From: an uncultured virus (IMG/VR IMGVR_UViG_3300028591_000185)
Lineage: Duplodnaviria > Heunggongvirae > Uroviricota > Caudoviricetes
Virus record (IMG/VR): IMGVR_UViG_3300028591_000185
Strand: one strand, 5' to 3'
Length of the DNA: 64,000 nt
The notes beneath the pieces are model-generated. The model was not told the DNA's origin and made no database searches. It saw only the letters and a program-made list of their open reading frames with translations. This document shows, piece after piece, positions 176-59,261 of the stretch. Position numbers and translations under genes: made by a program. Each line of letters opens with the position of its first letter. The first letter of the stretch is position 1.

Positions 176-1036
176 ATGTTTAATAGTTCAACAACTGGTG
201 GCTACAGTTTAGCTGACATCGCAGCAGCAACTCGCGGTGGTTCTTATGGTGGAGGAGCTGGTGATGGCTTCTTTGGTAATTCTGGCTGGTGGATTATCCT
301 GCTCTTCTTATTCGCATTAGGCGGATGGGGCAACAATGGTAACTGGGGTAATGGTGGCAACGGTTCTGATACCGCAACTCTTTATCCTTGGATGAATCAG
401 GCTGGCATTACTAACAATGGTTTTGAACATGTCGCAACATCTGCTGCTCTTGGCGATATTAGCACTTCTCTCTGTTCTGGCTTCGCCGGCGTAACAGCAG
501 CTGTTACCGCATCTCAAAACGCAATCACTCAGCAAATGTACGCAAATCAGTTAGCAGATCTTGAACGCTCATTTGCCGCACAAACTGCAACTACTTCTGG
601 CTTAACAAATTTATCAAGCCAGTTAGCATAGTGCTGCTGCGATAATCGTTTAGCAACTGCTCAACTAGATGCTACTATTGCTCGTGAAAACTGTGCTGAT
701 CGTGAAGCACTCAATTATGCTACTCGTGACATTCTTACTAACCAAAATGCTGGTATCCAAAAGATTTTAGACCAAATGTGCAGCGATAAGATTGATGCGA
801 AGAACGAGAAAATTGCCGACTTAGAACGTCAGCTTGCTATGGCTAACTTCTCTGCTTCACAGATTGCGCAAACAGCTCAAATCAGACAGGGACAAAATGC
901 TGAAATTGATGCGATGTATCAACGACTCAGAGATTGCCCCGTTCCAACTATGCCAGTCTATGGTATGACACCAATCTTTACCTGCCCCGGCAATAATGGT
1001 TGCGGTTGTGGCAATTACGGCACTCTCGTCGGTTAA
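176..1036 (+). CDS. Gly/Asn-rich hypothetical protein with one TM segment, QCCC motif and C-terminal CGCG (1 TAG=Gln)
   Basis: ORFs 176..631 and 776..1036 are in frame, separated only by TAG 629-631 (SQLA-Q-CCCDNRL); RBS AGGAGG upstream. Confidence 0.85.
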
Positions 1037-1055
1037 TCAATGAAAGGAGAAAAAT

Positions 1056-1475
1056 ATGGAAATAACAGCGAATACATTACAGACTGTTGCTCCTAATGGG
1101 GTTGTTGTATTTAACGACACAGCCAGTCCAGGTGGTCCTAGTATTATCCATCGGGAAGGCAGCGGATTAGTTTCTTTACGCGGTCTTACTAATCAATGTC
1201 GTGCCAGATTTCGTATAACTTTTGGCGCTAACATCGGATTACCCGCTGACGGCACAGTAGCCCCTATCTCACTTGCTATCGCAATTAATGGCGAACCATT
1301 AGTAACTTCTACTATGATTTCTACCCCAGCGACTGTTGAAGAATTCAACAATGTTGGGCGTGTAGTATTTCTTGATGTAGTAGCAGGTTGCTGCGTACAG
1401 GTAAGTGTAGAAAACACAAGTGATGCTCCAATAGATGTTCAGAATGCGAACTTAATCGTAGAAAGGGTGGCGTAA
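1056..1475 (+). CDS. beta-rich hypothetical protein, possibly BclA C-terminal/jelly-roll-like
   Basis: 139 aa ORF with AAGGAG RBS; the fold guess comes from the sequence pattern only. Confidence 0.6.
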   Translation: MEITANTLQTVAPNGVVVFNDTASPGGPSIIHREGSGLVSLRGLTNQCRARFRITFGANIGLPADGTVAPISLAIAINGEPLVTSTMISTPATVEEFNNVGRVVFLDVVAGCCVQVSVENTSDAPIDVQNANLIVERVA

Positions 1476-1476
1476 T

Positions 1477-2082
1477 ATGGAACGATTGAAAGAGATTAAA
1501 TCTTGTTTAGTAAGTCTTGTATAGACATAGCTTGGCGATGTAGAACATACAGATGCCAAAGAAATGGGTGAAGTCATTGACATGATTAAAGACCTTGAGG
1601 AAGCTATGTATTATTGCGCCATTGTAGAAGCGATGGAAAAATCAGAAAAAGAGGGAACAGAAGATATGCGCATGCGCTCTCACATGGGGTATAAAGAAAT
1701 GTTCCCTCACGGCGAATATGATTGGGATGACATGAGTTGGCGTCCCTATTACTTTTACCAAAACAGTGGACGAGGCAGCGCGAACCAATATGGCGGTTCG
1801 AATTCTGGATCTACTGGCTCTCGCATGGGCTACGGCGAGGGGTCAAGTATGAACGGTAGCAGCCAAGGCGGTTCTAGCGGCAATGGCTCTACTTCTTATT
1901 ATGGCGGACCTAATTACTATTATTCAGAAGGGCATGAAAGCTCTAAAGGAGATATTAAGCAAGTAAATAAATACTTAAATGAATTAAGTGAAGATTTACC
2001 TCATATGATTGAAAAATCAACTCCAGAAGAGAAGAAAATGCTTTCAGAAAAATTACAATAGGTTAGTAATAAGATTAAATAA
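1477..2082 (+). CDS. hypothetical protein with Gly/Ser/Tyr-rich low-complexity centre (3 TAG=Gln)
   Basis: ATG 1477 is in frame with ORF 1564..2061 through two TAGs; a third TAG reads through to TAA 2080-2082, which overlaps the next ATG. Confidence 0.8.
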
Positions 2083-2408
2083 TGGTATTTACAATTAATG
2101 GGGTCGTATGGTAGGTAAAGAAAGTGCCACCATACGACTCTCATTTATTAAGACCTGATGGTTCTTATACTATTGGTATGTGTAATAATGTAGAAAAAGT
2201 AATTTATATCATTGAAGGATTAAACCCAAGTTAGTTTTATAAAGTATTAGCACATGAAGTTACACATGCCGCTATGTATAGTTATAGTGTAGGATTAACT
2301 ATTGATTAGGAAGAATTACTAGCTGATATTATCTCCACATATGGAGGAGAGATTGTAAAAGTAACGAATAAAGTATTTAGGAAAATAAAAAAATAGGGAT
2401 GGTATTAA
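2082..2408 (+). CDS. small HExxH zinc metallopeptidase-like protein (4 TAG=Gln)
   Basis: Manual translation MVFTINGVVWQVKK...YKVLAHEVTHAAMYSY...DQEELLAD; absent from the ORF track because of TAGs. Confidence 0.75.
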
Positions 2409-2426
2409 TACCATCCCTATTTTTTG
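2388..2426. terminator. bidirectional intrinsic terminator
   Basis: Perfect palindrome AAAAAATAGGGATGGTATTAATACCATCCCTATTTTTT between convergent genes. Confidence 0.85.
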
Positions 2427-2439: not shown

Positions 2440-2847
2440 TTAGTGTGCGCTAGAGGCAAAAGTGCAAGTAGAATCACATGAAGTACCACAAACATTACCA
2501 CAACCAGCACATCCTCCGCTACATCCATTATCACAATTAGAACTACAGTTAGTTGAACAACCACCAGTACAGGCTGTACACCCTGTATAACAACTTGAAC
2601 ATAGATTATTACAATAAATATAACAATTGGTTTCACACCAATCATTACATGATTTAATACAATTACCACTACAACTAGTACTACAATTATCAAATTTACA
2701 AAGTGTATGGCACCCACGAATACAATTACTAGAACAATCACCGCAGGCCTAAGCACAATTTACTCCACAGCCATTACCACAATTATTATAACAACCACCA
2801 ATACAAGCACTGCCACAACCACCATTACAAATACCATCTATTGCCAT
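2440..2847 (-). CDS. CXXX-repeat Cys-rich peptide, putative radical SAM substrate (135 aa, ~32 Cys, 1 TAG=Gln)
   Basis: GGAGG RBS then MAIDGICNGGCGSACIGGCYNNCGNGCGVNCAQACGDCSSNCIRGC...CGTSCDSTCTFASSAH, TAA; Cys every 3-4 residues. Confidence 0.9.
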
Positions 2848-2862
2848 GTTTGCCTCCAATCG

Positions 2863-3612
2863 TTAAGCTGCTATGGGGCCATTGCCACCTGAACAACCAA
2901 AACAAGCTCCAGCACAACCACTACCACAACGATTTGCGCAATTTGATCCACAGACTGCTGCACATGTTGAAGTACAACTTCCACAGCTATTTTTACATTC
3001 ATAACTGCAATTATCAATACATATTGTTGTACATGTTGTTAAACACTCACCAGCACAATTCCCCATACAAACATATCCACAACCACTACATCCATTTTGA
3101 GAATTTTGATTTCCTGTACTGTCATCACTTATAGTCTAATTAGCTTTATTAGTAGTATTCGCGCAGCTTCCCGCACAATACCCTACACATGCTCCATTAC
3201 ATCCAGCATATGTAGATTCACTATTCCCATTATTCCAATAATTTACAACTACATAAAAATCAGTTAATGCTGGAATAATACTATTCTAATTTAAAACATC
3301 AGAATTTTTAATCCGTGTTGCTGCATCACTCTCTGCTGCAGTTCCCATTGGCTTCATATAGCCTTTTTTTAATAAATCCTATATTGTCTTAATACCATTA
3401 ATAAAAGGAGAGGCATTAATTTTATTATTAACTTGTTCCTATGTGGCTGAAATTGATGTATTAATATTTGCTGGAGCAGTATAATTATCAAAATCTGAGC
3501 TACCTAAACCAGTAACTGCTTTACGTGTGTCAATTAAAGTTTTTATGGCACTACGCAAAGATTCAAAATTACGCTCAGAGCCTACAATTTTATCATTTTT
3601 ATTATATCCCAT
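2863..3612 (-). CDS. protein with ~135 aa N-terminal domain and C-terminal CXXX-repeat Cys-rich region, putative radical SAM substrate (249 aa, 4 TAG=Gln)
   Basis: ATG 3612 with AAAGGGG RBS, in frame with ORF 2863..3066; contains GCNGACVGYCAGSC and CSGCGYVCMGNCAGECLTTC... repeats. Confidence 0.85.
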
Positions 3613-3630
3613 TATTACAATCCCCTTTCT

Positions 3631-4959
3631 TTATTCAAGAGGAAATTGTAATAATTTTAAATTGTCAAGCTCCTCTTGACTAATAATTTTTAATGCTTCT
3701 TCATCTGGAAGCCAAAGTTTAAATCGTTTCAAATCCCCATGCTTCCAATATTTCATATTCCAATAGTAGCAATTAGCTAATGCACGAGCCTTATGCATAA
3801 TGCAAATATAAGTAGCACGTTTATTCCAACAGCCGCCACTATCTTGATAGTTATATGCAGCACATTCTGCGCATCCTTCTGCTATTGGACATTCTAAACA
3901 CTCTTGACTAAATTCTGTCAAACGAGTAATTGCGCGCATACAATGAACACAATCCTTCCATTCTTGACGCGCCATAATACCCTCATATACATTACCAATG
4001 ATTACTGGAGGTATATCTGTTCCTAATGAGCTTTCCATATAACGAATACAAGGATAAATATCTCCTTTGTAATCAACGGAAATCATTTTCCCATAACCGC
4101 CACACCAAGTCTATGTATCATCAGGAGATTTGGGTTTAAAAAAGGTATCTACAAAAATAGATAAATCTATTTTATCTTCTAAATCATTTTCAAATAAATA
4201 ATTAGCTAATTCTTTTAACTAATAATATAAAATAGTTGCATGCTCTTCTGTCCAGCCCTTTTCAAATACACAATTAAGATTAATATCATCATAACCAGAT
4301 TCAATTAGCCCAACCACTGCATCTTTTGTATATTGAATATTAGCTGGCGCAAGTGTCATTTTACTACCCATTCGTCTACCCAATGTTTCTGTCCAATGTT
4401 TAACACCAGCCATTGCTATATCATAACTGCCAGTTCCATCTGGAAATACTCGACAACTATCATGTAACTATTTATTTCCATCAATTGAAATATTAAATGA
4501 TAAATGTCGCTCATGCTTTTTCATATAGGCTTGCACTTTTGGGTCAAAATATAAAACACCATTTGAGCATAATGAAATCATATGATTATACTGCCATGGA
4601 TGATCACGTATAATCATCTATTCAAAAAAGTAATCTGTAATTTCATCAATTAAATCTATTTCTAAAAAAGGTTCTCCACCGATAAATTCAATAATACAAG
4701 CAATAGACTCACGTGAATTAATATATTCTGCTGTATCAGGGTCTGGGTCTAAAATTAAATCGATGAACCTTTTTGCAACGTCCATCGACATAACATGAGT
4801 ACCTTTATTTATCTGATAGCAATATGAGCATCTTAAATTACATGCATCTGTTACCTAAAATGTAATATTATGAACTAACTATTTACCGGCGAGAGCTAAT
4901 GGATGATCTTTATATAAACGGGCAATTTCATCCTAATACTACTCAATATGCCGTGCCAT
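3631..4959 (-). CDS. radical SAM/SPASM peptide maturase, CXXX-repeat target type (442 aa, 8 TAG=Gln)
   Basis: ITFQVTDACNLRCSYCYQ (CxxxCxxC), IEFIGGEP, SIDGNKQLHDSCR, and a SPASM-type C-terminus WCGG...GDIYPC...CLECPIAEGCAEC; joins ORFs 4219..4413 and 3631..4086. Confidence 0.92.
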
Positions 4960-4961
4960 AA

Positions 4962-5252
4962 TTAATCCTCCATAGTAATTGTTACAATATTAGTATGATA
5001 ATCTAAACTCCAATTAATAGGATTACTTACGGCCTTACGCACATATTCTCTTTCAACAATTCCTTTAGCCTGTTCAAATGCAAAATACTTTTCATTATAT
5101 TCCTTCTAATAAGCAGCCATGCGCTCTTCAGGTATATTAATATTTTTTTCTAGAATATAAGTGATAATATCTCTACGAGCAGAACATTCAATATCTGCAC
5201 GTTGAGTTGCATTTTTTATCTCTTCTGGAATTTCAATAGTAATAGTTTTCAT
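4962..5252 (-). CDS. small accessory protein of the CXXX-repeat modification cluster (96 aa, 1 TAG=Gln)
   Basis: AAAGGAG RBS; MKTITIEIPEEIKNATQRADIECSARRDII...NWSLDYHTNIVTITMED; lies immediately upstream of the radical SAM gene. Confidence 0.75.
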
Positions 5253-5285
5253 TATCTGAATCTCCTTTATCTCTTATATATAAAT

Positions 5286-5314
5286 ATTATACCTCAAAAA
5301 ATTAAAAAAATCAA
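5286..5314 (-). promoter_or_regulatory. sigmaA-type promoter of the radical SAM cluster
   Basis: TTGATT-17 bp-TATAAT on the minus strand. Confidence 0.75.
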
Positions 5315-5343
5315 GGGGATGCAATTTACATCCCCTACTTTTT
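5314..5343. terminator. intrinsic terminator-like hairpin
   Basis: AGGGGATG-caattta-CATCCCCT followed by a T run, downstream of the holin-like gene. Confidence 0.6.
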
Positions 5344-5915
5344 TAGTCATCTAAATCTTTCTTAAATTTAGCTTCTACCATGCGGAACAACACATCCCCT
5401 TCATGATTTCCGCCTAATTCATTATAAGTCCGATGTTCCATCAGGACATTTTCAAATTCAACTAAACTAATTGTATGTGCTGGATCCAAAAGACGATGAC
5501 AATCATCTTTAAAAGTACGCCCCTGTACAGTTAACATACCATTTTTAACTGACCCAAATTCACTTTTTAAGCTCTATATATCAACACGAATATTTTTATC
5601 TGCGGTTAATAAATCATCATCCCGTTTATCTACAACAGATAATAAATTGCTATAACAAGCCCCCATTTGTGCTTGCATATCAGTTTTCTAATCCTCTAAT
5701 CGCTAATCAAAATTGCGCAAAGATGTATTAATATTCGTATTTTGTTCTTCAAATTTAGTATCAATAGTTTGTAAAAGAGCCTTATCATGCTCTTTTTGAG
5801 CTCCCTCTTGGCTCTCTCTTGTCATTTTTATATAGCGCTTAACCATAAAAGTTAAACCAGATACAATAACGCCAAAAAGCGCTTCTAGCCAATACTTGGC
5901 AATCCACTCTAACAT
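5343..5915 (-). CDS. putative holin-like membrane protein (N-terminal TM, coiled coil, YxxLGGN motif; TAG=Gln)
   Basis: ORFs 5703..5924 and 5343..5537 are in frame via TAGs; TM segment WLEALFGVIVSGLTFMV; YNELGGNHEG. Confidence 0.6.
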
Positions 5916-5952
5916 ATATAGCACCCCTTTATTAACATAAAACTTTTCTATC

Positions 5953-5997
5953 CAATAGTTTTAAAAAACATTGAAGATAAATTAAAAAAAGTCGTCC
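5953..5997 (-). promoter_or_regulatory. putative phage late/middle promoter motif, copy 1
   Basis: GGAC-N8-TTAA-N18-TAAAACTATTG, same spacing as four other intergenic copies. Confidence 0.6.
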
Positions 5998-6471
5998 TTA
6001 AAAGGCCGACTTGTTTTCTTTTATATATGCCGCCCCAATACAAATAGCATCTGCTGCATCCTATGATACTTTTTTATTAAAAGTATTTAATACATATTCT
6101 TGCGCATGCCGTTTCTATTCAGTACGGGCTTTACCTTTAATATTCAAAACTGATTTCCAAGTTTGAGAATGTACTATATGATATTCAATATTTAATTCTG
6201 TTAATAATTCCTATATAACACCAAATACTTCAGCTAATACTTTATATGTTGTTACGCCAACAGCGCCACTCTATAACTAAATATCTTCAAATAATACTAT
6301 ATCAATTTCATTTTCATCAATAAAATCTAATATTGTATTTCTTAACTATACTAATCTATTCCCAACATCATCACTTGATAAAGTAAATGTTCCAACTTCA
6401 ATTAATTCATCGTCTTCAAATATCGCATAACCCGAAGTTCTACTAGCCTAATCTAATGCTAGAATTTTCAA
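5998..6471 (-). CDS. RuvC-like Holliday junction resolvase (7 TAG=Gln)
   Basis: TTG start; KILALDQASRTSGYAIF...VLFEDIQLQ...SQTWKS...QDAADAICIG, matching RuvC catalytic D/E/D-D spacing. Confidence 0.85.
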
Positions 6472-6908
6472 TGTGTAGAACCAAAGCCTCCCGCGCGTTC
6501 AACTAGATTTACATTATCTATATCTAAATTAAAACGAGGCATAACTAAACCTTGCGCGATGCTTTCGCCTTTCTTTATTATTACTGGGGTATCTAATAAG
6601 TTATAGACTTGAACAAAAATTTGGCCTTCATTTTTAGGATTATCTACGTAATCACTATCAATAACTCCAATACCATTCGCAAGAATTAATCCCTTTTTCA
6701 TAGGGGCTGAACTACGTAGTGCTATAAGTAACCACTAGTTTTCCCAAAGATAGCATTTTACTCCAGTAGGAATTAATTTAATACTCCGAGGTAAAACTTC
6801 AGTATCTTCTGCACAAAATAAATCATATCCAGCGCTATTAGTAGTAGAACGTACTGGATACTATGCTTCTGGAAAAGCAGCAACACGTTCAAATTTACTC
6901 CATTTCAT
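6468..6908 (-). CDS. dut: trimeric dUTPase (2 TAG=Gln)
   Basis: Motifs SAGYDL, LIPTG, RSS, GVIDSDY, RAGGFGST. Confidence 0.93.
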
Positions 6909-7123
6909 TACTCTTCTCCCCAAAACTTCTCAAATACTTTGCCAATTTTTACTTCATAACCAGCATCTATAACGATACCCTTCTTTTTCTTTTCTTTTAA
7001 TTTAGAAGAATGAGTTACTAATGTATAATTAATCGCATTAGCTTTCATCTCGTCAATTAAATCACTTACTTCGTCTTCGGTATTTACGCGATAAATTTCA
7101 GTTGTACTCAATAATGTTCTCAT
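6908..7123 (-). CDS. hypothetical protein
   Basis: 71 aa ORF, GAGG RBS, stop overlaps the dut start. Confidence 0.7.
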   Translation of the reverse strand: MRTLLSTTEIYRVNTEDEVSDLIDEMKANAINYTLVTHSSKLKEKKKKGIVIDAGYEVKIGKVFEKFWGEE

Positions 7124-7132
7124 TTTAACCTC

Positions 7133-7429
7133 TTAATTTAATTCTATTTTAATAAAATTACAAGCATATTCTTGTGCTCCAATAGTAGCTATTTCCTATG
7201 CTAAATTTTTAATCAAATCTTCTGGCCCATACAAATGGATAATTAATTCAATATCGTTGTCTTTAGCTTTTGCCTAATATTGCTGATAAGTATTTGCCAT
7301 AATATCAGGCAACGCAGCTAACTCAAATTCACCAAGAGGTAATACTTGATTAGTGGTAGCATTACAAGCATATACTGTTTGATATTTTACTCCTAAATCA
7401 AAATTACATACAATACTTATTTGTGACAT
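7133..7429 (-). CDS. hypothetical protein (2 TAG=Gln)
   Basis: Manual translation MSQISIVCNFDLGVKYQTVY...; fills the gap in the operon and ends in TAA. Confidence 0.7.
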
Positions 7430-7830
7430 TCAATAACCCCCAAGTCATAAACAAAAAATACATACATTAAGGCCTCATCGCCTACTTTAAACCAACATTC
7501 ACAGGCGTCGGTTTGTTCATTTAATTCAATACTAATTAAATCACCTATCGCTCGCATACAATCATCAAGTGCGCCATAAAAGCTTTCTTCAAAAGCGTCT
7601 TGCATATTAAAAATTGTATAATAATGAACATCATTATTTAAAAACATAAAATACTAATTATTATGGTCTTGAATATATTTTGCTAAAATTTGTAACGCAG
7701 CCCCACATTCTGATGAGGCTTGCGTTAAAACAGGCAATTTAGCATATGCTATTTTATTTAGTTCATATGTATTCATTTGCAAATTCATAGGTAATTTTTT
7801 CTTATAAGTAGTTTTTTTAGAACCGCCCAT
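7417..7830 (-). CDS. hypothetical protein (1 TAG=Gln)
   Basis: ORF 7417..7647 extends through a TAG to ATG 7830 with GAGGAG RBS. Confidence 0.75.
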
Positions 7831-8051
7831 TATTCAATCTCCTCTATTACATAACAAAATTCATCTGGTGCATATCCATCAAATTTAGTATATCCTTCTT
7901 CTGGGACATCATGCTAATTTATATCACGGAAGTCATAACCATGAACTGACACTAAAATACGAATAAACTAAATAGCTTCATCCCAAGAAAATGCTTCAGA
8001 AGATAATTTAGTAAAATCATCTTCATTTCTATGATAATATACTTTTAACAT
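7830..8051 (-). CDS. hypothetical protein (2 TAG=Gln)
   Basis: MLKVYYHRNEDDF...; GAGGG RBS; TAA overlaps the next ATG. Confidence 0.65.
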
Positions 8052-8389
8052 TTACAATCCCTCATTAGTCGGTCATACCAGGTTTGGTCCATTGTCTGTA
8101 AATCAGCAAGTTTTAAATAATGCTTTGGTTTGTTCATACGACCTTTCCAATCATAAAATGGGCCATGCTCTGATTCTCCAACAAAGAAATGCCCTACTAC
8201 TGGGTCATAATATACATCCAAATTAAATCGTGAAGCTAGGATATAAGCCATCCAATAACAATTTCCTGTTAACCAATTTTGGTCATTTGGAAAACGACGA
8301 TTAATAAACTCTAATACTTCTAGTTCTTTGGTATCACCCATTTTAATCTGTATATCAACAAGCTTCTAAGCTGCTTCCTCTAATGTCAT
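8045..8389 (-). CDS. hypothetical protein with GNCY...H...DW motif (possible papain/transglutaminase-like; 1 TAG=Gln)
   Basis: ORF 8045..8341 extends through a TAG to ATG 8389 with AAGGAG RBS. Confidence 0.65.
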
Positions 8390-8504: not shown

Positions 8505-9113
8505 TTATTTCCAACGGCCAATAGCCATTACTTCTACAACAATTCCAGGACAAGTCTAAGAATTTGCTCGCCAAAAACAGGCTTGACCTGCGCTAGTAGC
8601 AGTAACATCTTTATGTAATTCTGGAATACATGTATATGAATTATATGCCGCTACTCTTACATATGGCGCCACTGGAACATCAATAAATGCTATTGGCCAA
8701 TCTCCTAACTAAAAATAACCTGATTCATATAATGCTCCCCAAGCTGTAGTGCATGTAACTGTACCTAAAGTTACTCTTTTCCAACAAATCTATATACCAT
8801 CAGCAAATCGCACCCAAGAACCGTTATTATTACTACCAGACACTTCTACTGTTTCATTACTTATTGCGCTAGTCTATACTAATACGATATCCCCAGCCGT
8901 GGCCCCATTCGGAATAGTTTCAGCATCTGTTGCCCAAATTTTACGATGCATGCCACTTCCATCAACAACTGGTGCGCTTCCTCCATTAGATGTTACATAT
9001 AAATCATCCGGATTAAAAGTAACTGTAACACCATTAGCAGTTACCGTATTATTAGTAAATAATTCTTCTTTTTGAGCTTCAGTTAAATAAACAATCTTTT
9101 TTAAATCTGCCAT
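8505..9113 (-). CDS. tail fibre-associated protein with C-terminal gp53-like domain (TAG=Gln)
   Basis: ORF 8874..9113 reads through to NGSWVRFADGIQICWK...WPIAF...MAIGRWK, TAA. Confidence 0.8.
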
Positions 9114-9127
9114 ATATAATTATCTCC

Positions 9128-9910
9128 TTATTTCCAACGGCCAATTGCCATAATACATACAATTACATCAGTACAAGTCTCTGAGTTAGGACGCCACCAT
9201 GCAGTCTCACCAGCACTAGTTGATGATACACTGCGAGTAGCTTCTAACATACATATTCCACGAGTACTGGAAACTCGTTGCACAAATACACGTGGAGTAC
9301 TATTAAATGCTATTGGCCATTTTCCCATGTTAAACCATCCACTGTCATATACACTTCCCCAGGCAGTGCTACAATCTACCTCTCCTAATGTTACATCTTT
9401 CCAACAAATCTATGTGCCATCAGCAAAACGCACCCAAGAGCCATTAGAATTAGTACCACTAGTATCTTGAGTTACAGTAACTGCTGTTGCATTAGTCACA
9501 CCCCAAATACGAGTTGGAATAGCGCGATTTGTCCAATCAACATATGCACTGCCATTATAAACCATTTGTCCATTACCGAAAGTAATACTACTTGAAGTTA
9601 CCTATATAGCACGAGATACTCCATTAATCATAGTGGCAGCGCTTGAATTGGTTTCTGTATTTAAATACATATAAAATAATACACCATTTGTACCAATTGT
9701 AAAACGATTAATACAACGAGCAGTATCAGCAAATGGAGCAAATTCAACATCAACATATAAATAATCAGATAAATCACCCAAATTACTTAATGTCTATGCA
9801 GTAAAACCAGCAGTAGGCGTAGGATTTGTCCATAATAAATGTCTTACCTCTGATTCTGGAACTACAACAGTTCCACCATCTAACTAATTTTGTCCTAAAT
9901 AAATACTCAT
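9128..9910 (-). CDS. tail fibre-associated protein with paralogous gp53-like domain (TAG=Gln)
   Basis: ATG 9910 (GAGG RBS) in frame with ORF 9128..9328; NGSWVRFADGTQICWK...WPIAF...MAIGRWK. Confidence 0.8.
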
Positions 9911-11721
9911 GCTAACCTCACTATTTCAATACCTGGGCTTACTGGTAATTTTACTTTAATTGCTGTACTGCCAATAGTAGCAATAGTAGTTTCAGTATTC
10001 CAGGTTAAATCTATGTTATTATTTATTACTGTCTAATGACTAGTTAATACTGCTGTACCACCACTATATAATTTAGTAGCATATAAATATCCATTATAAT
10101 TTAATCTAGTAGTTCCATTTGGCGCTGTGGTTCCAGTATAAAAACCAGCATTGCTTGGTCTTGAACTATAAGGAGCTAAAGCGTAAGTAACTGCATTTAT
10201 TCCATTTGTTCCAGTTAAATCCCAATAACCATCTGTGGCATTAGCAGTAATCGTATGACCATGATTACCGGCGGCGGCATCATTAGCAGTAGTACCAATT
10301 TTGATAATACCAGCTACTGAAGTTGATGCAGTTGGTAATGTTTTTTTAGTAGCTGTAATTTTACCTTTACTATTTTGGCTAATAGTATCAATAAATGTAG
10401 TTGAAGTGGTTGAACTGGCACTAGGGTCGCTAGTGGCTAATGAACCTGCGGTTATTAAACCACCAGTAGTAGTATATACAGCATAATCACTAGTAGAACC
10501 AATTTTACCACCTTTAGAGATATTACCATGTACATGCTCTGATAAAGCAAAGTCGGTAGCCAACCCTAAATTATGCCATTTACCGCTAGTCCAAATATAT
10601 TCTTTTCCGGTAGCATCAATTACTACATTTCCTTCTACTGGAGTTAATGACCCTCCACCTGCTGGGGTAACGGGAGAAGTTGTTCCGTTATCAGTTAATG
10701 TTTGAGTAATAATTCCTTTAAATTCCATTGATGATCCAGCTAATCCTAAATCATCAATATTGACCGTTACATCTGATTGTCCATCAAAAGATTTATCTCC
10801 AATAGTAATACTATGCCCTACTTTAGTTGCTGTACCGGCAAAATTAGTAGCAGTAATTGTATCGGTACTTGGATTTACTGTAATAGCGGTATCATAAACA
10901 GTTTCATAAGCTGTGCCACTAGTAGGACTTACCTAGGCGCTCATTAACAGTTTATATTCTTGATTATCAGATTTTACTGTTTGCTTAACTTTAGTATCAG
11001 TATTATCACTTGCTGGTAATTTAATTTTTATTGCAGTACCACCAATTGTAGCAATGGTAGTTTCTGTATTGCGACTTAAATTAATATTATTATTTGTTAC
11101 TGCTAATTTAGTTTTTACATAATTATATAATTTAATTGCATCACGACGATAAACTTGACCAGTAGCGTTGCTATCCGCAAAACCATCATTACTAGCATAT
11201 GAAGAAAATAGTTCTGTGTTATCAGTAAAATCAGAAGTACCTTCCTAAATATTATTTGCACCACTCTATGAAATTTCGCCCCAATTATATGTAGGTTTAC
11301 TGTGTGATTTTGCCCACGCTGGTACGTCATTAGCAGGCAAAGATGTAATTACACTACCATATGCACTAATATGACCCTACGCATCTATTTTAATTGGATA
11401 TAACCCCTAAGTCGTTTGTGCAGTAATACTATTAGTATGATTAATTGTTCCTGTCGTGGTAAAGTTTCCACCAGGAGTAGTATTAATTGATAATCCAGTA
11501 CCGGCAATAACCTTTGTCACTGTGCCTCCTGAATTATTATCGGCGGCCCAATACACACTTGCTCCATTTGTTTTTAATATATAACCACTAGTGCCTAGTC
11601 CATAGGTTGATCCACCTGCGCTAGTTGGAGCACTAATACTAGTTATCTAAATTTTATTAACAAAAGTGTCGCCAATTAATCTGGAGGCACCGTTTACTAT
11701 TAAATCTTTTAATTGTGCCAT
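9907..11721 (-). CDS. tail fibre-like protein, Thr/Ser/Gly-rich (604 aa, multiple TAG=Gln)
   Basis: MAQLKDLIVNGASRLIG... open through TAGs to TGA 9907; includes ORF 10033..10728. Confidence 0.8.
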
Positions 11722-11733
11722 ATATTCACCTCA

Positions 11734-13047
11734 TTAAAAGTAATTTTCTAAACTAACTCCATCCTCACTAACAATCATTGCATAATGAGGTATTAAAGTG
11801 TTATTATTATCTATAACATATATTTTATAAGTTTTTAATTTTGTTCCTATACGATTTACCATCCTTACAGTATTAATAGGTCGCCACACAGCATAAAGTA
11901 TAATAGGTGTTGACACAGATACTGTAATAGTATCCCCGCCTGTATAACTTACTGTAGATGAATTACTTGTTGTAGCCCATCCTAAACACTCAAAACCTGT
12001 TTTCGTTGGAACGCTATAAGAAATATTAAATGTATAGGATGAATTAGGTGTAGTTGCAGTAACAACTCCGGGCCCTCCAACACCACCATTTGCATTATAA
12101 ATTAATGTAACCGAAGCATTTTGCTCCCAATAGGGATATAATGTAATAGCAGCATTTGCAGTATATGATCCACCTAGATTATATGCCTTTGAACCCCCAT
12201 CGGACGTACTCCATCCTTTTTGTGCATAACCTGAACGAGTAAAAATAGCTCCTTGTAAGGTAAGAGCAACTCCGTATGTTTTTGTTGCACTAGTATTTGT
12301 GCCAGTGCCGTTAGCACCTTTATTATATGAAACAGTATAAGTATTAATAGTCCAATATGGATATAATGTAACACCGGCATTAGTAGTATAGGACCCGCTT
12401 AAATTATATACTTTAGCACCACCATCAGTTGTACTCCATCCTGTTTGAGTATATCCAGTTCGTGTAAATATAGCTCCTTTTAAAGTAAGCGTTACATTTT
12501 CTGTTTTAGTTGCACTCGTATTGGTACCAGTACCATTTGCTCCTTTGTTATATGATACTGTGTATGTATCTGGTTCACTTGTAACGACTGTAAGATGTGA
12601 AGTCGAACAGTTAACCCAACCTCTAGTAGTAGTATTACCTGCAAGACCAACTACGTATCCATATGTTGGAATACCACCAGAAGTTAAAGTAAAATCGGTA
12701 TCAGCATATACGCCACTTGGACATACTGATGCCCAGAATGTCTTAATAGCTGAACCTCTAGTAACAGATGTTGATGAGTTATTAGCTTTATGGCTAATAG
12801 CCAGCTAAACATCACTACCAAATCTATCCATATATATAGTTAATGTAATGGATACGATGGTTTTTCCACGTAATGCTGATAATGATGATGAATCAAACAT
12901 CATAGCACGTGCATAACGCTCTCCGGCATCATATCCAGCACATGAATCTGCATAGTTTGCAAAGTTAGAATAGTTGCTGGACCATGATGTAGCCATACCG
13001 CAGTTATAAGTTGAAGGATATAATGTTGTTGTTACATTATGTGCCAT
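11734..13047 (-). CDS. virion surface protein with three Listeria-Bacteroides (InlB B-type) repeats (1 TAG=Gln)
   Basis: ORFs 12805..13047 and 11734..11916 are in frame; repeats YTVSYNKGANGTG...FTRTGYTQTGWST...TLYPYW. Confidence 0.8.
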
Positions 13048-13154
13048 AATTCATACCTCATGATGGTAACAGCTATTATCTATATTTTATTAGTGAATAC
13101 ATCGCCAATAAGACGAGAAGCCTTATTGACAATAAGGTCTTTTAATTGAGCCAT
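13032..13154 (-). pseudogene. truncated duplicate of the 5' end of tail gene 9907..11721
   Basis: MAQLKDLIVNKASRLIGDVFTNKIQI versus MAQLKDLIVNGASRLIGDTFVNKIQI; own AGGAGG RBS; stops after 40 aa. Confidence 0.75.
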
Positions 13155-13190
13155 GTATTCAACCCTCCTTATATATATTCAACTATTTTT

Positions 13191-13219
13191 ATCATAGTAT
13201 ATTTTTCTAATTTTGTCAA
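13191..13219 (-). promoter_or_regulatory. sigmaA-type promoter
   Basis: TTGACA-17 bp-TATGAT. Confidence 0.65.
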
Positions 13220-13275
13220 GTTGCGGTTTACCAATTTTTTACTAATTTATAGGTAATTTTTTGGTAAACCACAAC
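13220..13275. terminator. hairpin with TTACCAA/TTGGTAA arms and enlarged loop
   Basis: GTTGCGGTTTACCAA...TTGGTAAACCACAAC. Confidence 0.6.
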
Positions 13276-13278
13276 TTT

Positions 13279-13809
13279 TTAATATTCATAAAAATGATTT
13301 GCTAAAGCAGATTCTTTTTCAAATGAAGCTAAAGCTCTCTGTGTTTCATAAAACATATTTGTTTTTATCTATCCATTTTTTTGAACAGATGGAGATTTAA
13401 TGATATTATCATAAACTCTAACATTAGAAACATGCATAATAACACTGTTTCCAGTATTATCTGTTCCCCTAATATTAACTCCAATAAACTATTTTGCTGA
13501 TGAAATGTTAAATCTTACATGATACCAATTCCCGGCTGTTCTCTCCAATGTAAATAATGGAGTCCCATAGGCAATACTATCTAAATTAATTATAAATATT
13601 CCAGTAGGAGATAAATTAGTAATATCTTCTAAATAATAATCAAATTCAAAAATTATATCTTTTCCTACAATATCTGGTAAATTCCAACCAAAAGAACGCC
13701 ATCCATTTGTAGCTGTTAAGATTAATTTTTCTCCATCAAATACTTTTGAGCCAGACCATCCATTCATCTAAATATCATTTAAATTAGTCCAATTACTTAA
13801 ATAATCCAT
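13279..13809 (-). CDS. putative carbohydrate-binding-like virion protein (3 TAG=Gln)
   Basis: ORF 13489..13767 extends both ways through TAGs; its ATG overlaps the upstream TAA. Confidence 0.7.
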
Positions 13810-15485
13810 TATTCCACCAACTCTCTTACATGAATATTTCCATTATTATCAATACTCATACTTGTATTATAAAGCTCTTTAATTTGCTCGGGGGTAAGCG
13901 CAGTAGCATAAATACGAAAATCTGAAATTGACATATCATTAGTAGTATAAGATGTACCACTATCCCAACCATTCATATATATTTTTGTGCCACTAATAGA
14001 TTTATAAGTCTTAGCCTATCCCCATAATTCTCCATCTAAATAAACAACACATGTGGTTCCATTACCAACCATTGCAAAATGATGCCATGAATTTAATGAT
14101 GGTGCTGTTACTTGAGTAGTGGTACCAGGAGTATATAATGGATTATTCGCACCATCACCAGTATTCCATAAGTTACCATTGTAAATACCATTTAATCGTA
14201 CTCCATTAGCAAATCCCCAAAACATTTTATTGGAAAAAGTATTTGTTTTACCCCACCAAATAAAAGAATAAGAATTAGCAAAACCGGACGTATTAAGATT
14301 CTCAATTAATACTTTACTTGTTGTAGCGGTAAAATGAGTAGCACAACCGTATCGTGAACTTGGCACAACAGTTTCTAAAGAACCAACTATTGTACCATTA
14401 TTGCTATAACCAGAAGAGTCATAGACAGTACTTGAACTACGAGATGTACCTCCTAAAACCCAGGGAGTTCTATAACTTTTCTGCTCAACTTGAGCATGAT
14501 ATACCTAAAATGTTGGTGAAGAAGGAACTGCACCCGAAGATCCATTCTAAAAATATAAATAAATACTTCCTGTGTATTTTGTACTGTCAGTTAAATCACA
14601 AGTAACAGATGACCACCCTTCTTCTCCTGGATTAATAATATTACCCTAAAAAGTGCCATAACTACCAGCGACTAACAATGGAGAACAACGTATTCGTACA
14701 GTTACATTAGAAGTATTTTTAATATAAGCGCTATATGTGATAATTGCATTACCACATGTACACGTTGCAGGAGATAATGAACCAACATTTTTCCCTAAAT
14801 TAATATTAGTATATGTTGGACAAGACTAAGTTTCTGTTAATAAATTAGTAGTTGGTTCGCAGAATGGGTCATCTAATTTATAATGTAATACTAATCCTTT
14901 TGCAATTTCTTCTACTTCTTTTGCAGAAAGGGCGTGGTCATAAATACGCACATCATTTAATTTACCATTTAAATAATTTCCATATCCACTTCCATTCGTT
15001 TGAGAAGCCCCTATTGAAGTAGTAGTACCCCACTAGTTAGAAGCAAGGGTTTGTGTTTTCTTTTCTTTAAATTCACCATTAATGTAATAATATACAATAT
15101 TTCCATCATAAGTGACAGTTAAATGAAACCAAGTATTAATTGGATAAGTGTATGCTGTATACCACTATAAACTATTGCCTCCACAATCAATTCGTATCCC
15201 TCCACCAATTAAAAAAATGGAAAATCCAGATCCAACAGTTGTTCTATCACAAATTATTGTCTATGTTGCAGAAGAGGAAGTAGTATATATCCAAGCACAA
15301 ACAGAATATCTATTATTATAAAAATTATATGGAGTATATAAATAATTATTACTTCCATTAAAAGAATAACATTTTCCAATTTTTCCATTATTATCAACTG
15401 TTGCGCTATTATTAGTAACAGTAATATTACTTAACCCCTAATTATGTAAATCCCCATTAAGGGGGAGCCATACTTGTAAACTCAT
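13809..15485 (-). CDS. LamG/concanavalin A-like domain virion protein (multiple TAG=Gln)
   Basis: MSLQVWLPLNGDLHNQGL...WFHLTVTYDG...LNDVRIYDHALS and a second LamG unit WHHFAMV...SDFRIYATALT. Confidence 0.85.
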
Positions 15486-15501
15486 ATAACTCCCTCCTTA
15501 A

Positions 15502-17148
15502 TTAATTAAATATAAAATCAATAGCATTAGTTGTGCTATTAAACATCATATAAGCTTTTTCCGTACCACTTATATTAAATGAGTGCCGGACCGCACTAAT
15601 TTCGCCAGCTGTTGTTGTTAAATATACTCCCGTATCAGCTACACCAGTTAATGCTTGTGCTGTTGAAGTTGGTGCGGTAGTTACACCAGTGAGATAGGCT
15701 TTTGAAGTAGTAGCTAATGTGATATTTTGCTTTATATCCGTATTAGGATTGCTTGGCATTGTCATATTATAACTAGCTACACCAGTAATATGACCACAAG
15801 TGTCATATTTTTCTTCATATAATGTAAAAGTCCCACCCCAAGTTAATGTCTTGGCAGATTGAGCAGCAGCAGTTTTTGCTGTTACACTATTGGTATGATT
15901 GATTGTGCCACTAGTTGTAAAATTACCTTGAGCTGTACTACCAATAGCTAAACCTGTACCGGCAGTAACTTTAGTAACAGTACCAGTATTTGTAGTATAT
16001 GCAGTAGTATCAAGAGTCCAAGTATTAGCAGCAGTTTTCTTTAATAAACCAGAAGTGCCTGAAAGCGCTTCAATAGCCTATACATCGGAAGCTCCGGTAA
16101 TTTCACTTAATGCATAAGAAGGTTTCGTAGATGCTTTTGCCCAGGCAGATACATCACTTGCGGGTAGGCTTGTTACAGCTGTACCATAAGCTGAAATATG
16201 ACCATTTTTATCAATTTTAATTGGGTATAATGCCTATGTTGTCTATGCATTTGTTAAAACATTAGTATGCCCAATTGAAATAGTACCAGAGGTTGTAATT
16301 GGACTACTCGTAACAGTTAAACCTCCATTAGTAGCATTTGAAATACCAACAGAAGTAACGGTACCACTAGGCTCATCACCAGAAGGAATTAATACCCAAC
16401 TTGAACCATTACTTACAAATACATCTCCTACTTTTGCCACCTAATTAGCATATGTATTAGCCGTGATTACTTTGTAAGTATACCCCTAATTACCTGCCGT
16501 GGCTGCTGGTAATGATGTGATTGTACCATCAGTACCCAAACTTCCCATAAATAACATCGCACTAGATAAACCTAAATCAGTTTTTAAAGTAGATGCGGTT
16601 ACAATATCTGATGTACTACCATTAATTATTTTTGTAAGCTTTTTATTTGTTCCATCCCAAGCTACATTTGTTACAGTAGTACTTACAGGAGCTCGTGATG
16701 TATCAGTCGGATGAACGTGATCTTCACGAGCATATTTAGCAGATGTACCAACCGCCGCAGTACCATCCATTAATGGGGCAGCAGAAGCCGCTGTACGCAT
16801 ATCATTATTATTTAACCAACCAACCATCTACCAATATGTACCATCATAGGTAAATGCTACCACTGAACCAGCTTGCCAAGAAGTAGCAGCTGAAGTTGAT
16901 GGAGCAGTTGTTCCATATCTATAAATAGTTTTAGCTCCAGTAGAATTAACATTTAATGTTGGATTAGCTACACTATTGGAGTAAGTAAATTTAACATGAA
17001 TAGTAACACCAGTAATTAATTTATCAAAATTATCACAAGTTACAACTTTAGCCGCAGTCCCAGCAGCCGTTGTACAAGTGCCATATAATGTAGAAGCAAC
17101 TGGGAGGTTATTACCTCCCAGTGCTACTTGACCTATATAAGTTGCCAT
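15502..17148 (-). CDS. tail fibre-like protein (548 aa, multiple TAG=Gln)
   Basis: Four track ORFs (16828..17148, 16486..16827, 16243..16440, 15502..15765) are in one frame joined by TAGs; YAREDHVHP motif. Confidence 0.85.
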
Positions 17149-17165
17149 AAGGTTTTACTCCTTTC

Positions 17166-18674: not shown

Positions 18675-18799
18675 TGAATAGCCCTCCTTATAAAAAATTC
18701 TAAAATAAAAAATCGGGGTAGTCCCGCAAAAGAGCAGAACTACCCCATATATATAAAAAGTGCTAATATAAAGTCTACACAAAAGGTATCTTACTCTTT

Positions 18800-26281: not shown

Positions 26282-27506
26282 GTTTTTTGACACATGCGCT
26301 TTGTTAAAATCGGTAAATCATCTAATGCCTTCTATAACAATTTGTTCAATTACGTTAGAAGAATTAGAAAATATTAAAACTTCTACAACTAAAGATGCTG
26401 ATATTAAGTATGCGGCTCGTGCGGTGTTACGTGATTTAGATGAACATCCCGACCGCTATACTATTATAGTTTTTACAAATTCTATGTTAGCACCTATTAA
26501 TGAAAAAGATTTACCTATCACTAATGATACTAAAATTTTAGCTTGTGCATTATCTATCGCGGAGACTGAATAGATAACATTTTATACAAATGATTATTCT
26601 TTAAAAGCAATTGCGCGATTATTCCCTGACCAATTATATGTTATGTCTATTGATGACAATTGGGATGACTATTATAAAGGTTTCTTTGAAATGCAATTAT
26701 CAGATACCGAATTAGCCGCCCTATATTCATATCCAGAAGCAATTAATTATAATTTAAAAGTGAATGAATATGTACTAGTCTATAATTGGCAACATGAATT
26801 AGTAGATAAATTAGTTTATACCGGAGAAGGCTATCGCCCACTCTCATATAAAGATTTCGATTCGGAGCAGCTCGGTTGTATTAGACCACTGTCCAACGAC
26901 CCACAATAGCAATTTGTAGCAGATAGCTTTACTCATAATAAAATAACTCTTGTAAAAGGCCCAGCAGGGTCTGGAAAAACTCTTTTATCTCTTGGATTTT
27001 TATTTAATTAGTTAGAAAAGCATAAAATTGATAAGATTATTGTCTTCTGTAATACAGTTGCAGCTATGCATGCCGCTAAATTAGGTTATTACCCCGGCAC
27101 AAAAGATGAAAAATTACTTGATTCATAGATAGGTAATTTATTAATTAGTAAATTAGGTAGTCGTGCAGAGGTAGAGCGCTTAATTAGCGAAGAGAAACTA
27201 GTCCTTTTACCAATGTCTGATATAAGAGGTTATGATACTACTGGCATGCGCGCTGGTATATATATTTCAGAAGCACAAAATCTTGACATTCCTTTAATGA
27301 AACTTGCCCTACAACGTATTGGGGATGATAGTATTTGTATTATTGATGGTGATGCAAAAGCCCAGGTTGATGATATTAATTTTGCCGGGGCTAATAATGG
27401 ATTACGACGAGTATCTCAAGTATTTCGTGGACAAGATTTTTATGGAGAAGTAGAATTACAATAGGTGCATCGTTCAAAGATTGGAATGATTGCAGAAAAT
27501 ATGTGA
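26274..27506 (+). CDS. phoH: PIN domain + PhoH-family ATPase (5 TAG=Gln)
   Basis: FFDTCALL...LEELENIK...NDTKILAC (PIN); GPAGSGKT, LGYYPG, IRG, EAQN, HRSKI; three track ORFs in one frame. Confidence 0.9.
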
Positions 27507-27546
27507 GGAGGGAATTTTCCCTCCTCTTTTTATAAGGAGGGAAAAT

Positions 27547-57991: not shown

Positions 57992-59158
57992 TTATTTAAC
58001 ACGTATCCAAATACGTCCATTTACTTTTACATTATCGCTACCCCATTCTTCATATTCAGGAATTTCACTTACAATTCCTATAATACAATCAGGATAATCC
58101 CTAATTTCTTCTCTGGTCATAATATCAACAGTACCACCAGGAGCAGAGCAAACTGCCATCCCGGCATGATAATTATTACGATTTTGATATGGATATACTA
58201 ATACACGACCTGCAACTGCAACAGGAGTTTGTGCGGTTGGGGTTGCGCCCATACAATGACCATATGTATCAGAAATTACTTGGGCTCCTGGCTATAAGCG
58301 GTCAGAAGAACAAACTAATGAACCATCATCTTGATCTATTACGACACAGCCTGGGATAAGGTCTACTGTTGTGCGGAATTCGGCATAGTCATTAAAGACA
58401 GCATTATATACACGCATTGCGCTCAAATTTTTAGCAAAATAAGCGCCACCAGAACACTATAAAGCATTATTATTATAAGTAGTTGTATCTGGTTTTTCTG
58501 CCGCTCCTGTATAACCAGCTGTACTTGTAATTATAAAAGGACCAGAAGAACTTAAACCAGAATTTCCTAATGTTAAATTAGTAATATACGCATTATTGAC
58601 TGGATAAGAAGCACTCCCTAAATTTTTAATATAAGCTGTATGCCATCTTTTGGTACCAGAACCAATATTCCATTCTCCACCATTGGTATCAACCGCATCT
58701 TTACTAGGTAGCAAATGTCCATCAACAGTAGTTGTACCGCCTAATGAAATTTCACCGGCATCACCAGCTAATCCTTTAATAGGAATTTCATATCTATTTC
58801 CATCTATATCTACTCGAAATGTACCAGTAGGCTATTCGCTATATTTATCTGTTATGGGATCTTTTATTAATGGGGTTAATGGCTATTCAACTCCATCAAT
58901 AATTTCACCAGGGAATACAATATCACTACCAACTCCAATAATAGTAGAACTACCATCACCTTTATATAAACGTATATGTTTAGGTCCGCTTCCACTCTAC
59001 CAAGTTTCCCCTTGCGCATCAGTTGGGCCGATTGCATATGTATAAGTAGCAGCCGCTACAGCCTATAAACCAGCTTTACTAATTACATATTGCTATGTAC
59101 TCGCAGGAGCAGGTGATAAATTAGTGCTTCCATCTCTTGTAAAATTTATATCTGCCAT
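57992..59158 (-). CDS. tail-associated protein with C-terminal intramolecular-chaperone/peptidase G2-like domain (multiple TAG=Gln)
   Basis: ATG 59158 with AAAGGAG RBS; VYNAVFNDYAEF...PGCVV...ISDTYG...PVAVAGRVLV. Confidence 0.7.
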
Positions 59159-59200
59159 AAAGGATATATCTCCTTTCTCTCATTATAAAAACTTTTTCTA

Positions 59201-59245: not shown

Positions 59246-59261
59246 AAAAGAAGATATAAAG

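What the first reader, a model, noticed from the sequence alone, without database searches (positions are those of the whole stretch)
2440..5314. Phage-encoded radical SAM/SPASM maturase with two CXXX-repeat Cys-rich substrates, hidden by TAG recoding
Seen: a four-gene minus-strand unit with its own sigmaA promoter and a downstream terminator. It encodes a 96 aa accessory protein, a 442 aa radical SAM enzyme (CNLRCSYC plus SPASM-type Cys motifs), a 249 aa protein with a Cys-repeat tail and a 135 aa peptide with ~32 Cys spaced every 3-4 residues. All four contain in-frame TAG (1, 8, 4, 1), so standard gene calling destroys the cluster. Known: radical SAM/SPASM enzymes install thioether or other crosslinks in Cys-rich RiPP precursors. 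From memory, the CXXX-repeat system is described by TIGR04114/04115/04116 in bacteria, and its chemistry is not known to me. Inference: the phage makes post-translationally crosslinked or metal-loaded Cys-rich polypeptides. I see no transporter or leader protease in the unit, so the product may be intracellular or virion-bound rather than a secreted bacteriocin.
Basis: partly seen in the sequence, partly recalled or inferred. Interest (0 to 1): 0.92.

Follow-up and report, generated by a model that had tools for sequence, protein, structure and literature searches.

The report
Radical-SAM-matured cysteine-repeat phage fibre cap
A large gut phage that reads the stop codon TAG as glutamine encodes an iron-sulfur enzyme, a helper and two proteins with a cysteine at every fourth position; related phages suggest that such proteins cap the tip of a tail fibre and are chemically stapled by the enzyme, which no experiment has yet shown.

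Summary
Observation confirmed: four minus-strand genes with 1, 8, 4 and 1 in-frame TAG, read as Gln. The enzyme passes the TIGR04115 cut-off. The 96-aa helper is a distant TIGR04116 relative, fused to the enzyme's N-terminus in three loci. The cassette is not peculiar to recoded phages: 87 of 96 related locus clusters hold a Cys-repeat gene, mostly behind a tail-fibre gene. The scan found it before on at least eight other genomes. Added here: upstream fibres end in an 'AVWG'-like motif (held-out 7 of 19 vs 11 of 205). In a standard-code relative, a modelled complex docks one Cys-repeat N-domain on the three fibre ends (0.79, best control 0.00), like a gp38 adhesin. Against, in this window: the cassette lies 3.3 kb from the fibre genes behind its own sigmaA-type promoter, and its N-domain matches the family only weakly. 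Chemistry untested. Cultured phage SPN3US has unannotated Cys-repeat genes that allow a direct test. Verdict: new variant of a catalogued but unstudied system.

The parts
5286..5314 (-). sigmaA-type promoter (TTGATT-17-TATAAT) of the cassette; same class as promoters in the replication arm
   Evidence: 13 strict sites, 10 on the + strand replication arm, none among the fibre genes 8505-18782; similar site before the helper in L001, L002, L004, L040 (read by eye)
5314..5336 (-). terminator-like hairpin of the upstream gene; its T-run overlaps the -35 box
4962..5252 (-). 96-aa helper (P0004), distant relative of TIGR04116; model: strand, helical hairpin, two strands; probable substrate-recruiting partner of the enzyme
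   Evidence: pLDDT 97.7; hhalign 94%, E 1e-7 vs alignment A6; 8 of 8 A6 members hit TIGR04116; fused to the enzyme N-terminus in L221, L226, L229
3631..4959 (-). 442-aa radical SAM/SPASM maturase (P0001), TIGR04115 member, no N-terminal RRE
   Evidence: C40/44/47 in 119 of 120; C169, 230, 286, 304, 354, 357, 363, 366, 386 in 120 of 120; aligns to 5wgg from residue 83
2863..3612 (-). 249-aa protein (P0002): conserved 137-aa N-domain plus 22-Cys repeat with variable sequence; candidate fibre-tip cap
   Evidence: family model (stand-in locus L013)
2440..2847 (-). 135-aa leaderless 32-Cys repeat protein (P0003); second half of a split arrangement seen in 8 other clusters
   Evidence: (TIGR04117 18.8 bits, below cut-off 50)
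2388..2425 (.). bidirectional terminator shared with the convergent + strand cluster 176-2408
57992..59158 (-). 388-aa fibre-like protein with NAVFN (58391-58405) just before DYAE and a chaperone-like C-terminal part; candidate docking partner of P0002 after self-cleavage (inferred)
   Evidence: (E 1e-13 to a profile of the fibre type found beside cassettes); no Pfam or PHROG hit of its own; family member L028 passes Peptidase_G2 (30.8 vs 25)

Best explanation
The cassette makes a post-translationally cross-linked cap for a tail-fibre tip. SHOWN by sequence: a TIGR04115 radical SAM/SPASM enzyme without an RRE, a TIGR04116-like helper and two Cys-every-fourth proteins, all needing TAG read as Gln. 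MODELLED, in a relative only: one copy of the ~105-aa N-domain uses three short segments to grip the last five residues of each chain of a trimeric fibre, so a monomer closes a trimer, as gp38 does on T2/S16 fibres. INFERRED: the helper takes the place of the RRE and brings substrate to the enzyme. The enzyme abstracts H from residues between the cysteines and forms Cys-to-carbon thioethers, which staple the Gly/Ser/Thr/Asn-rich repeat into a rigid head that needs no disulfide formation. Gly acceptors would have to be linked at C-alpha; the PapB CxxxD pattern is absent. The variable repeat faces outward and probably contacts the host surface. The leaderless 135-aa protein extends or co-assembles with that head. 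In this phage the likeliest partner is the fibre at 57992-59158 after release of its C-terminal chaperone-like part. TAG richness would hold full translation back until the code switch.
For: Enzyme family: (428 bits vs cut-off 350; next PapB 167 vs 340). Co-occurrence: Cys-repeat ORF in 87 of 96 clusters. Context: of 85 clusters I classed as phage-type, 48 hold a tail/baseplate gene, 58 a tail gene or fibre end, 29 a lysis gene and 2 a transporter-like gene; of 11 chromosomal ones 0 hold tail genes and 9 an exporter. The window enzyme groups with recoded relatives (support 0.995), and this group is sister to L022 and L026, where a fibre gene adjoins the Cys-repeat gene (0.909). Terminal motif on the gene upstream of the cassette: 33 of 77 vs 27 of 780 other genes (motif drawn from these data); held-out 7 of 19 vs 11 of 205, p 2e-4. 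The same motif stands before D-x-A-E in 8 of 8 chaperone-bearing fibre genes of the loci, in the window gene, and in its relatives L250 and L251. Complex model for L013: score 0.79, best of 3 controls 0.00; the mark was reached by 116 of 157 solved complexes and 2 of 215 mismatched pairs (counts hold only roughly for this job); runs agree in at least 94% of contacts; partner pLDDT at least 81; the interface is centred on fibre residues 58-62 of all three copies. Neither partner has a sequence relative in the PDB at E below 0.28. The N-domain is tied to Cys repeats: 107 of 117 hits longer than 125 aa carry one (33 shorter hits set aside). Conserved anchor, variable head: among 8 of 9 P0002 relatives the N-domain is 61-81% identical and the non-Cys repeat positions 22-42%; the ninth is near-identical. 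TAG share of Gln codons: cassette 14 of 28, fibre genes 34 of 70, replication arm 43 of 464. Helper-enzyme fusions in 3 of 28 new loci. Precedent for thioethers in a large Cys-rich protein: CrpC/CrpA (PMC13692751, Results and Discussion read).
Against: No experiment. The complex was modelled on a stand-in locus (L013, enzyme 61% identical), not on this window's proteins. P0002's N-domain matches the family only weakly: 8.3 bits to the family profile, hhalign 20% over 24 columns, and the three docking segments are not above shuffles (p 0.24). Here the cassette is separated from the fibre genes by 3.3 kb of other genes (dUTPase, RuvC and others). It has its own sigmaA-type promoter of the class used by replication genes, whereas none lies among the fibre genes. 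The small genes at 5343-8389 are also TAG-rich (18 of 46), so TAG share may follow the region and not the function; the minus-strand genes at 57992-63884 have only 10 of 63. No window gene of the tail region ends in the motif. The candidate partner is about 53 kb away, and its cleavage site before DYAE is recalled from phi29 gp12, not found in a paper here. I had no control set of chaperone-bearing fibres from phages that lack the cassette. 44 of 77 upstream genes lack the terminal motif. L183 has helper and enzyme with no Cys-repeat gene downstream (only 250 bases upstream are held). Variable repeats could reflect low constraint as well as host selection.
Confidence: 0.5

Rival explanations
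1. In this phage clade the cassette has left the tail module and makes a free, intracellular cross-linked or metal-binding protein (metal or sulfur handling, or host interference), expressed from a host-type promoter.
For: Own terminator and sigmaA-type promoter, also seen before the helper in L001, L002, L004, L040; displacement from the fibre genes in the window, L001 and L002; divergent N-domain; leaderless P0003; the CrpA authors suggest metal binding (PMC13692751 Discussion).
Against: The enzyme nests among tail-module enzymes. Close recoded relatives carry recognisable family N-domains (L002:6998 E 1e-7, L004 E 2e-5). The genomes of L001 and L002 keep a fibre with GAVWN before DYAE. TAG load equals that of fibre genes.
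Confidence: 0.22
2. The protein docks on the fibre end only transiently, as an assembly chaperone or protective cap, and is absent from the mature particle.
For: The docking model cannot tell lasting from transient binding. Transient chaperone caps are described for Alteromonas phage fibres (PMC10579305, abstract), and T4 gp38 is a released chaperone (PMC12892980, passages).
Against: A chaperone would not obviously need a variable, enzyme-modified tail of up to 145 Cys; conserved anchor plus variable head fits an adhesin better.
Confidence: 0.1
3. The protein is a fibre-tip part, but the chemistry is not thioether stapling: the enzyme epimerises residues or installs another radical modification, and the cysteines bind metal or form disulfides.
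For: No CxxxD/E motif in either substrate; no TIGR04115 member was found characterised; two further invariant Cys (C169, C230) lie outside the usual cluster motifs.
Against: The nearest models and structure are thioether formers (PapB, SCIFF, QhpD models; 5wgg, CteB by recall and by PMC13692751 for 5WHY). Small residues between the cysteines suit close cross-links.
Confidence: 0.14
4. A secreted bacteriocin-like RiPP, carried by the phage as cargo.
For: The 11 chromosomal family members have short precursors (median 83 aa) and 9 of 11 have an exporter nearby.
Against: Those form a separate clade (support 1.0). The window unit has no transporter, protease or signal peptide. Phage-type substrates are long (median 246 aa, 38 Cys) and domain-bearing.
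Confidence: 0.04

Closest known systems
CXXX-repeat peptide modification system (NCBIfam TIGR04115 maturase, TIGR04116 helper, TIGR04114/TIGR04117 targets; Pfam PF27846 tSAM_targ_Cxxx_rpt, name)
   Same: Enzyme passes the curated cut-off; Cys every fourth residue with small neighbours; helper homologous by profile comparison; PF27846 is precomputed on 5 of 9 P0002 relatives.
   Different: Chromosomal members have short precursors and exporters; the phage form has long substrates with a folded docking domain, sits in tail modules and has no exporter. No biochemical study of the family was found.
CrpC/CrpA of Methanococcus voltae (TIGR04463; PMC13692751)
   Same: SPASM radical SAM enzyme that installs thioethers in a large Cys-repeat protein, engaged partly through N-terminal domains.
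   Different: Other family (58.7 bits vs cut-off 525); CrpC has an RRE; archaeal chromosome; 17-residue repeat. [quoted passage not shown]
PapB/PapA (freyrasin; NF047865)
   Same: Nearest characterised family by score (167 bits).
   Different: Below cut-off 340; PapB links Cys to Asp/Glu (PMC9413430, search listing; CX3D spacing recalled), a motif found 0 times in P0002 and P0003; short leader-core peptide.
gp38 adhesin of T2/S16-type phages
   Same: Works like it in the model: a monomer with a conserved N-terminal attachment domain on the tip of a trimeric fibre, and a Gly-rich variable C-terminal part (PMC12032242 and PMC12892980, passages).
   Different: No homology found: gp38 is not among the fold or sequence hits; gp38 has a polyglycine sandwich and no dedicated modifying enzyme; host binding is untested here.

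Membership tests
TIGR04115 CXXX-repeat system | Radical SAM/SPASM enzyme above the TIGR04115 cut-off | tested here: met
   428.2 bits vs 350
TIGR04115 CXXX-repeat system | Adjacent peptide with twelve or more Cys at every fourth residue and small flanking residues (definition recalled) | tested here: met
   22 and 32 Cys, 83% of gaps equal four
TIGR04115 CXXX-repeat system | Targets pass the TIGR04114/04117 models | tested here: not met
   P0003 TIGR04117 18.8 vs 50; P0002 no hit; low-complexity models, and most relatives also fall below
TIGR04115 CXXX-repeat system | TIGR04116 helper | tested here: inconclusive
   No direct hit; 2 of 49 family members hit at E about 0.05; profile-profile 94%, E 1e-7 to 8 true members: homologue below cut-off
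Thioether RiPPs (sacti-/ranthipeptides) | Enzyme-installed Cys-to-carbon thioether | not testable with these tools
   needs mass spectrometry
PapB-type ranthipeptide | CxxxD/E motifs and NF047865 cut-off | tested here: not met
   0 motifs; 166.7 vs 340
Classical RiPP pathway | RRE on the enzyme, cleavable leader, exporter or protease | tested here: not met
   alignment to 5wgg starts at its residue 83; helper model is not an RRE-type fold by secondary structure (RRE fold recalled); domain lies C-terminal in L007, L129, L131, L137, L144, L164, L165; no exporter
Anaerobic sulfatase maturase | TIGR03942 cut-off | tested here: not met
   53.9 vs 349.45
gp38-type fibre-tip adhesin | Homology to gp38 | tested here: inconclusive
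   not listed; no Pfam hit for P0002
gp38-type fibre-tip adhesin | Monomer bound through its N-domain to a trimeric fibre end | tested here: inconclusive
   model passes for stand-in L013; not run on window proteins; P0002 domain divergent
gp38-type fibre-tip adhesin | Present in the particle and binds a host receptor | not testable with these tools
   no proteomics or binding data
TAG-recoded (code 15) gut phages | In-frame TAG read as Gln, enriched in structural genes | tested here: met
   pattern as in bioRxiv 10.1101/2021.08.26.457843 (passages); no suppressor tRNA within the window

The most novel reading that the evidence does not exclude
Phages use RiPP-type radical chemistry to build a receptor-binding protein: a monomeric adhesin that clips onto the trimeric fibre tip through a three-segment docking domain, with a variable head held in shape by dozens of enzyme-made thioether staples instead of a folded core or disulfides. 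The module is portable across tail types, from gut Firmicutes phages to a distant version in Salmonella jumbo phage SPN3US, and is missed by gene callers and by proteomics.
Probability: 0.38. Interest if true: 0.92.

Novelty: new variant of a known kind. Interest (0 to 1): 0.72.

Why it matters
If right, a virion part is matured by a radical SAM enzyme, which links RiPP chemistry to phage host recognition and gives the unstudied TIGR04115 family a first function. It would also explain why these proteins escape notice: recoding here, missing or wrong-frame gene calls in cultured jumbo phages, and cross-linked peptides that standard searches cannot match. A processive enzyme that staples 20 to more than 100 cysteines in sequence-tolerant substrates, with a separable helper in place of an RRE, would interest peptide engineers. 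I found no paper on this in the held library (searches); subscription journals are mostly not covered.

Tried and rejected
No whole genome is held, so suppressor tRNA, head genes and host could not be checked; no tRNA in the window. Fold searches found nothing clear: family N-domain best Z 5.7, rmsd 3.6, 84 aligned, no Foldseek PDB hit at E below 0.001, viral hits only uncharacterised proteins; helper best Z 7.5, rmsd 5.2, 72 aligned, generic helical hairpins. An internal sequence repeat in the N-domain was not detected by hhalign. The docking-segment scan of P0002 was not significant. The Atlas search of the L013 N-domain gave only unnamed, mostly viral clusters. RNA: two metatranscriptome runs of one sheep-gut sample hold the stretch as contigs, but they cover the whole 19.8 kb laid, so DNA carry-over cannot be excluded and genes cannot be ranked. 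SPN3US papers: gp168 is called a baseplate/fibre protein (PMC5105663, PMC5694885, passages); gp163-167 were not found in the supplement of PMC10052503, and the Supplementary Table 1 virion list of PMC5694885 was not read. PMC11118758 and PMC12801897 (passages) do not describe this system. The SPN3US enzyme is below the TIGR04115 cut-off (125.6 vs 350), so it is a distant version. I draw no direction of transfer from the tree (117 sequences, those under 330 aa left out, long-branch root, sampling biased to the query). The automatic code caller mislabelled several short loci and was corrected by hand. The phage/chromosomal split was made by eye from gene maps before the tree; the TatA/TatC names for clusters c55/c24 are recalled.
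Full report
Observation. The window is part of a large phage genome that reads TAG as Gln: coding coverage is 0.91 under table 15 and 0.62 under table 11. It holds fibre-like genes at 8505-18782 (PHROG tail or virion hits for 3 of the 7 scanned) and a replication arm with DNA polymerase, helicase, topoisomerase and anaerobic ribonucleotide reductase. Runs that hold the stretch are mostly sheep and bovine gut metagenomes. Gln is conserved at most TAG positions in homologues, and contigs from other runs cover the cassette.

Family. The enzyme passes TIGR04115 (428 bits, cut-off 350) and falls short of the cut-off of each of the other 24 models shown; PapB is next at 167. It aligns to the solved enzyme 5wgg only from that protein's residue 83, so it lacks the N-terminal RRE. 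The helper has no direct family hit. Its family alignment (49 sequences) matches an alignment of 8 true TIGR04116 members at 94% probability. In 3 of 28 new metagenome loci the helper is fused to the N-terminus of the enzyme, where other maturases carry the RRE. Its model is a strand, a long helical hairpin and two strands, with no clear PDB match. I infer that it recruits substrate.

Distribution. 170 loci from viral, genome and annotated collections fall into 96 clusters at 85% enzyme identity; 87 hold a Cys-repeat ORF, and several of the 9 without are cut short. Two layouts appear. Eleven chromosomal clusters have short precursors and, in 9, an exporter; they form one clade. The other 85 are phage-type: baseplate, fibre, Cys-repeat protein, helper, enzyme, lysis genes; 58 show a tail gene or fibre end and 2 a transporter-like gene. 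Most use the standard code, so recoding is incidental to the system. The window enzyme sits among the phage-type ones.

The substrate. Most phage-type substrates join a ~105-aa helical domain (model pLDDT 83.6) to the repeat; in seven loci the domain lies C-terminal, which is hard to square with a cleavable leader. A profile search finds 681 representatives; of the best 150, 107 of the 117 longer than 125 aa carry a repeat. Among P0002's relatives the N-domain is conserved and the repeat varies in length and sequence. Residues between the cysteines are mostly Gly, Ser, Thr, Asn and Ala, and PapB's CxxxD is absent. A domain-bearing gene followed by a leaderless one, as here, occurs in 8 other clusters.

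Docking. Genes just upstream of the cassette often end in an 'AVWG'-like motif, even when the rest differs: 33 of 77 vs 27 of 780 other genes (motif drawn from these data) and, on held-out loci, 7 of 19 vs 11 of 205. A second fibre type carries the motif just before D-x-A-E and a chaperone-like C-terminal part (8 of 8; one passes Peptidase_G2); cleavage before that Asp is recalled from phi29 gp12. I modelled three fibre ends with one N-domain from the standard-code locus L013: score 0.79, best control 0.00. The mark was reached by 116 of 157 solved complexes and 2 of 215 mismatched pairs, counts that hold only roughly for this job. The runs agree in at least 94% of contacts and the partner's pLDDT is at least 81. 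The contacts centre on fibre residues 58-62 of all three chains, against N-domain segments 2-9, 43-54 and 73-84. This supports binding; it does not show it. It is the arrangement described for gp38 adhesins (PMC12032242, PMC12892980, passages), without detectable homology. Notes from this scan report a similar idea for a different, Asn-Cys family; they are leads, not support.

This window. The case is weaker here than for the family. The cassette lies 3.3 kb from the fibre genes, behind a terminator and a sigmaA-type promoter of the class found before replication genes; a similar site precedes the helper in four recoded relatives. P0002's N-domain matches the family only in its first helix, and its docking segments are not above chance, though it shares the first repeat motif (CNGACVGYC against the commonest CRGACTGLC). 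In favour: recoded relatives carry recognisable domains; the window has a fibre of the chaperone-bearing type at 57992-59158 with NAVFN before DYAE, as do the records of L001 and L002; and half of the cassette's Gln codons are TAG, as in the fibre genes and unlike the replication arm, although neighbouring small genes are TAG-rich too.

A cultured test case. Salmonella phage SPN3US and Cronobacter phage CR5 have two Cys-repeat ORFs between virion genes and a distant radical SAM pair; neither is annotated in GenBank. Proteomic searches based on the annotation could not have reported them.

Literature. Searches found no study of TIGR04115 or of radical-SAM-modified phage fibre proteins. The nearest chemistry is CrpC/CrpA (PMC13692751; Results, Discussion and supplement search). 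Seen as passages: PMC11118758, PMC5105663, PMC5694885, PMC12801897, PMC12032242, PMC12892980, PMC8326128, bioRxiv 10.1101/2021.08.26.457843 (supplements closed). Abstract only: PMC10579305. Supplement search only: PMC10052503. Search listing only: PMC9413430.

Verdict. A real member of a catalogued but unstudied system, in a phage form that probably matures a fibre-tip cap: about 0.7 for the family, about 0.5 for the whole mechanism in this copy. The scan has reported the tail association on at least eight other genomes.

Noticed in passing
window 176-2408 (+): Cluster of four genes convergent on the cassette (phrog_16490, phrog_20016, phrog_1233 with an HExxH motif), conserved beside it in L001, L002, L004, L183, and near it on the same strand in L068; function unknown.
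   Followed up: partly
L010 (JN641803 143191-144220) and L008 (JX094500 136233-137038): Unannotated Cys-repeat ORFs in cultured jumbo phages SPN3US and CR5; the GenBank calls there are in another frame or on the other strand. A third, short paralogue follows.
   Followed up: partly
window 18891-57931: A 39-kb + strand, TAG-poor replication block lies between two minus-strand fibre regions; in the record of L002 the homologue of 57992-59158 directly precedes the next fibre gene, which suggests a rearrangement.
   Followed up: partly
window 37130-38221 (+): TAG-rich gene (11 TAG) inside the TAG-poor arm: N-terminal hydrophobic stretch, long helical part and a C-terminal GIY-YIG-like endonuclease domain.
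   Followed up: no
window 27490-28617 (+) and 28622-28915 (+): Endolysin-like gene with peptidoglycan-binding hits (2 TAG) and a small hydrophobic gene inside the replication arm.
   Followed up: no
L004 7986-10331, L018, L076, L202; P0113: Several relatives of the enzyme are 130-350 aa longer through an insertion, probably an intein (PF13403 precomputed on P0113).
   Followed up: no
L076, L202, L142: Extreme expansions: five or six Cys-repeat genes in a row with a duplicated helper (L076, L202); one 650-aa protein with 145 Cys (L142).
   Followed up: no
L149, L153, L162, L167: Bacteroidales chromosomal version with three radical SAM genes, precursors with an SRREFF-type start and Tat-like genes (names recalled).
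   Followed up: no
P0178: Database protein in which N-domain, Cys repeat and a helper-like C-terminus are in one chain (read by eye); real fusion or assembly error not checked.
   Followed up: no
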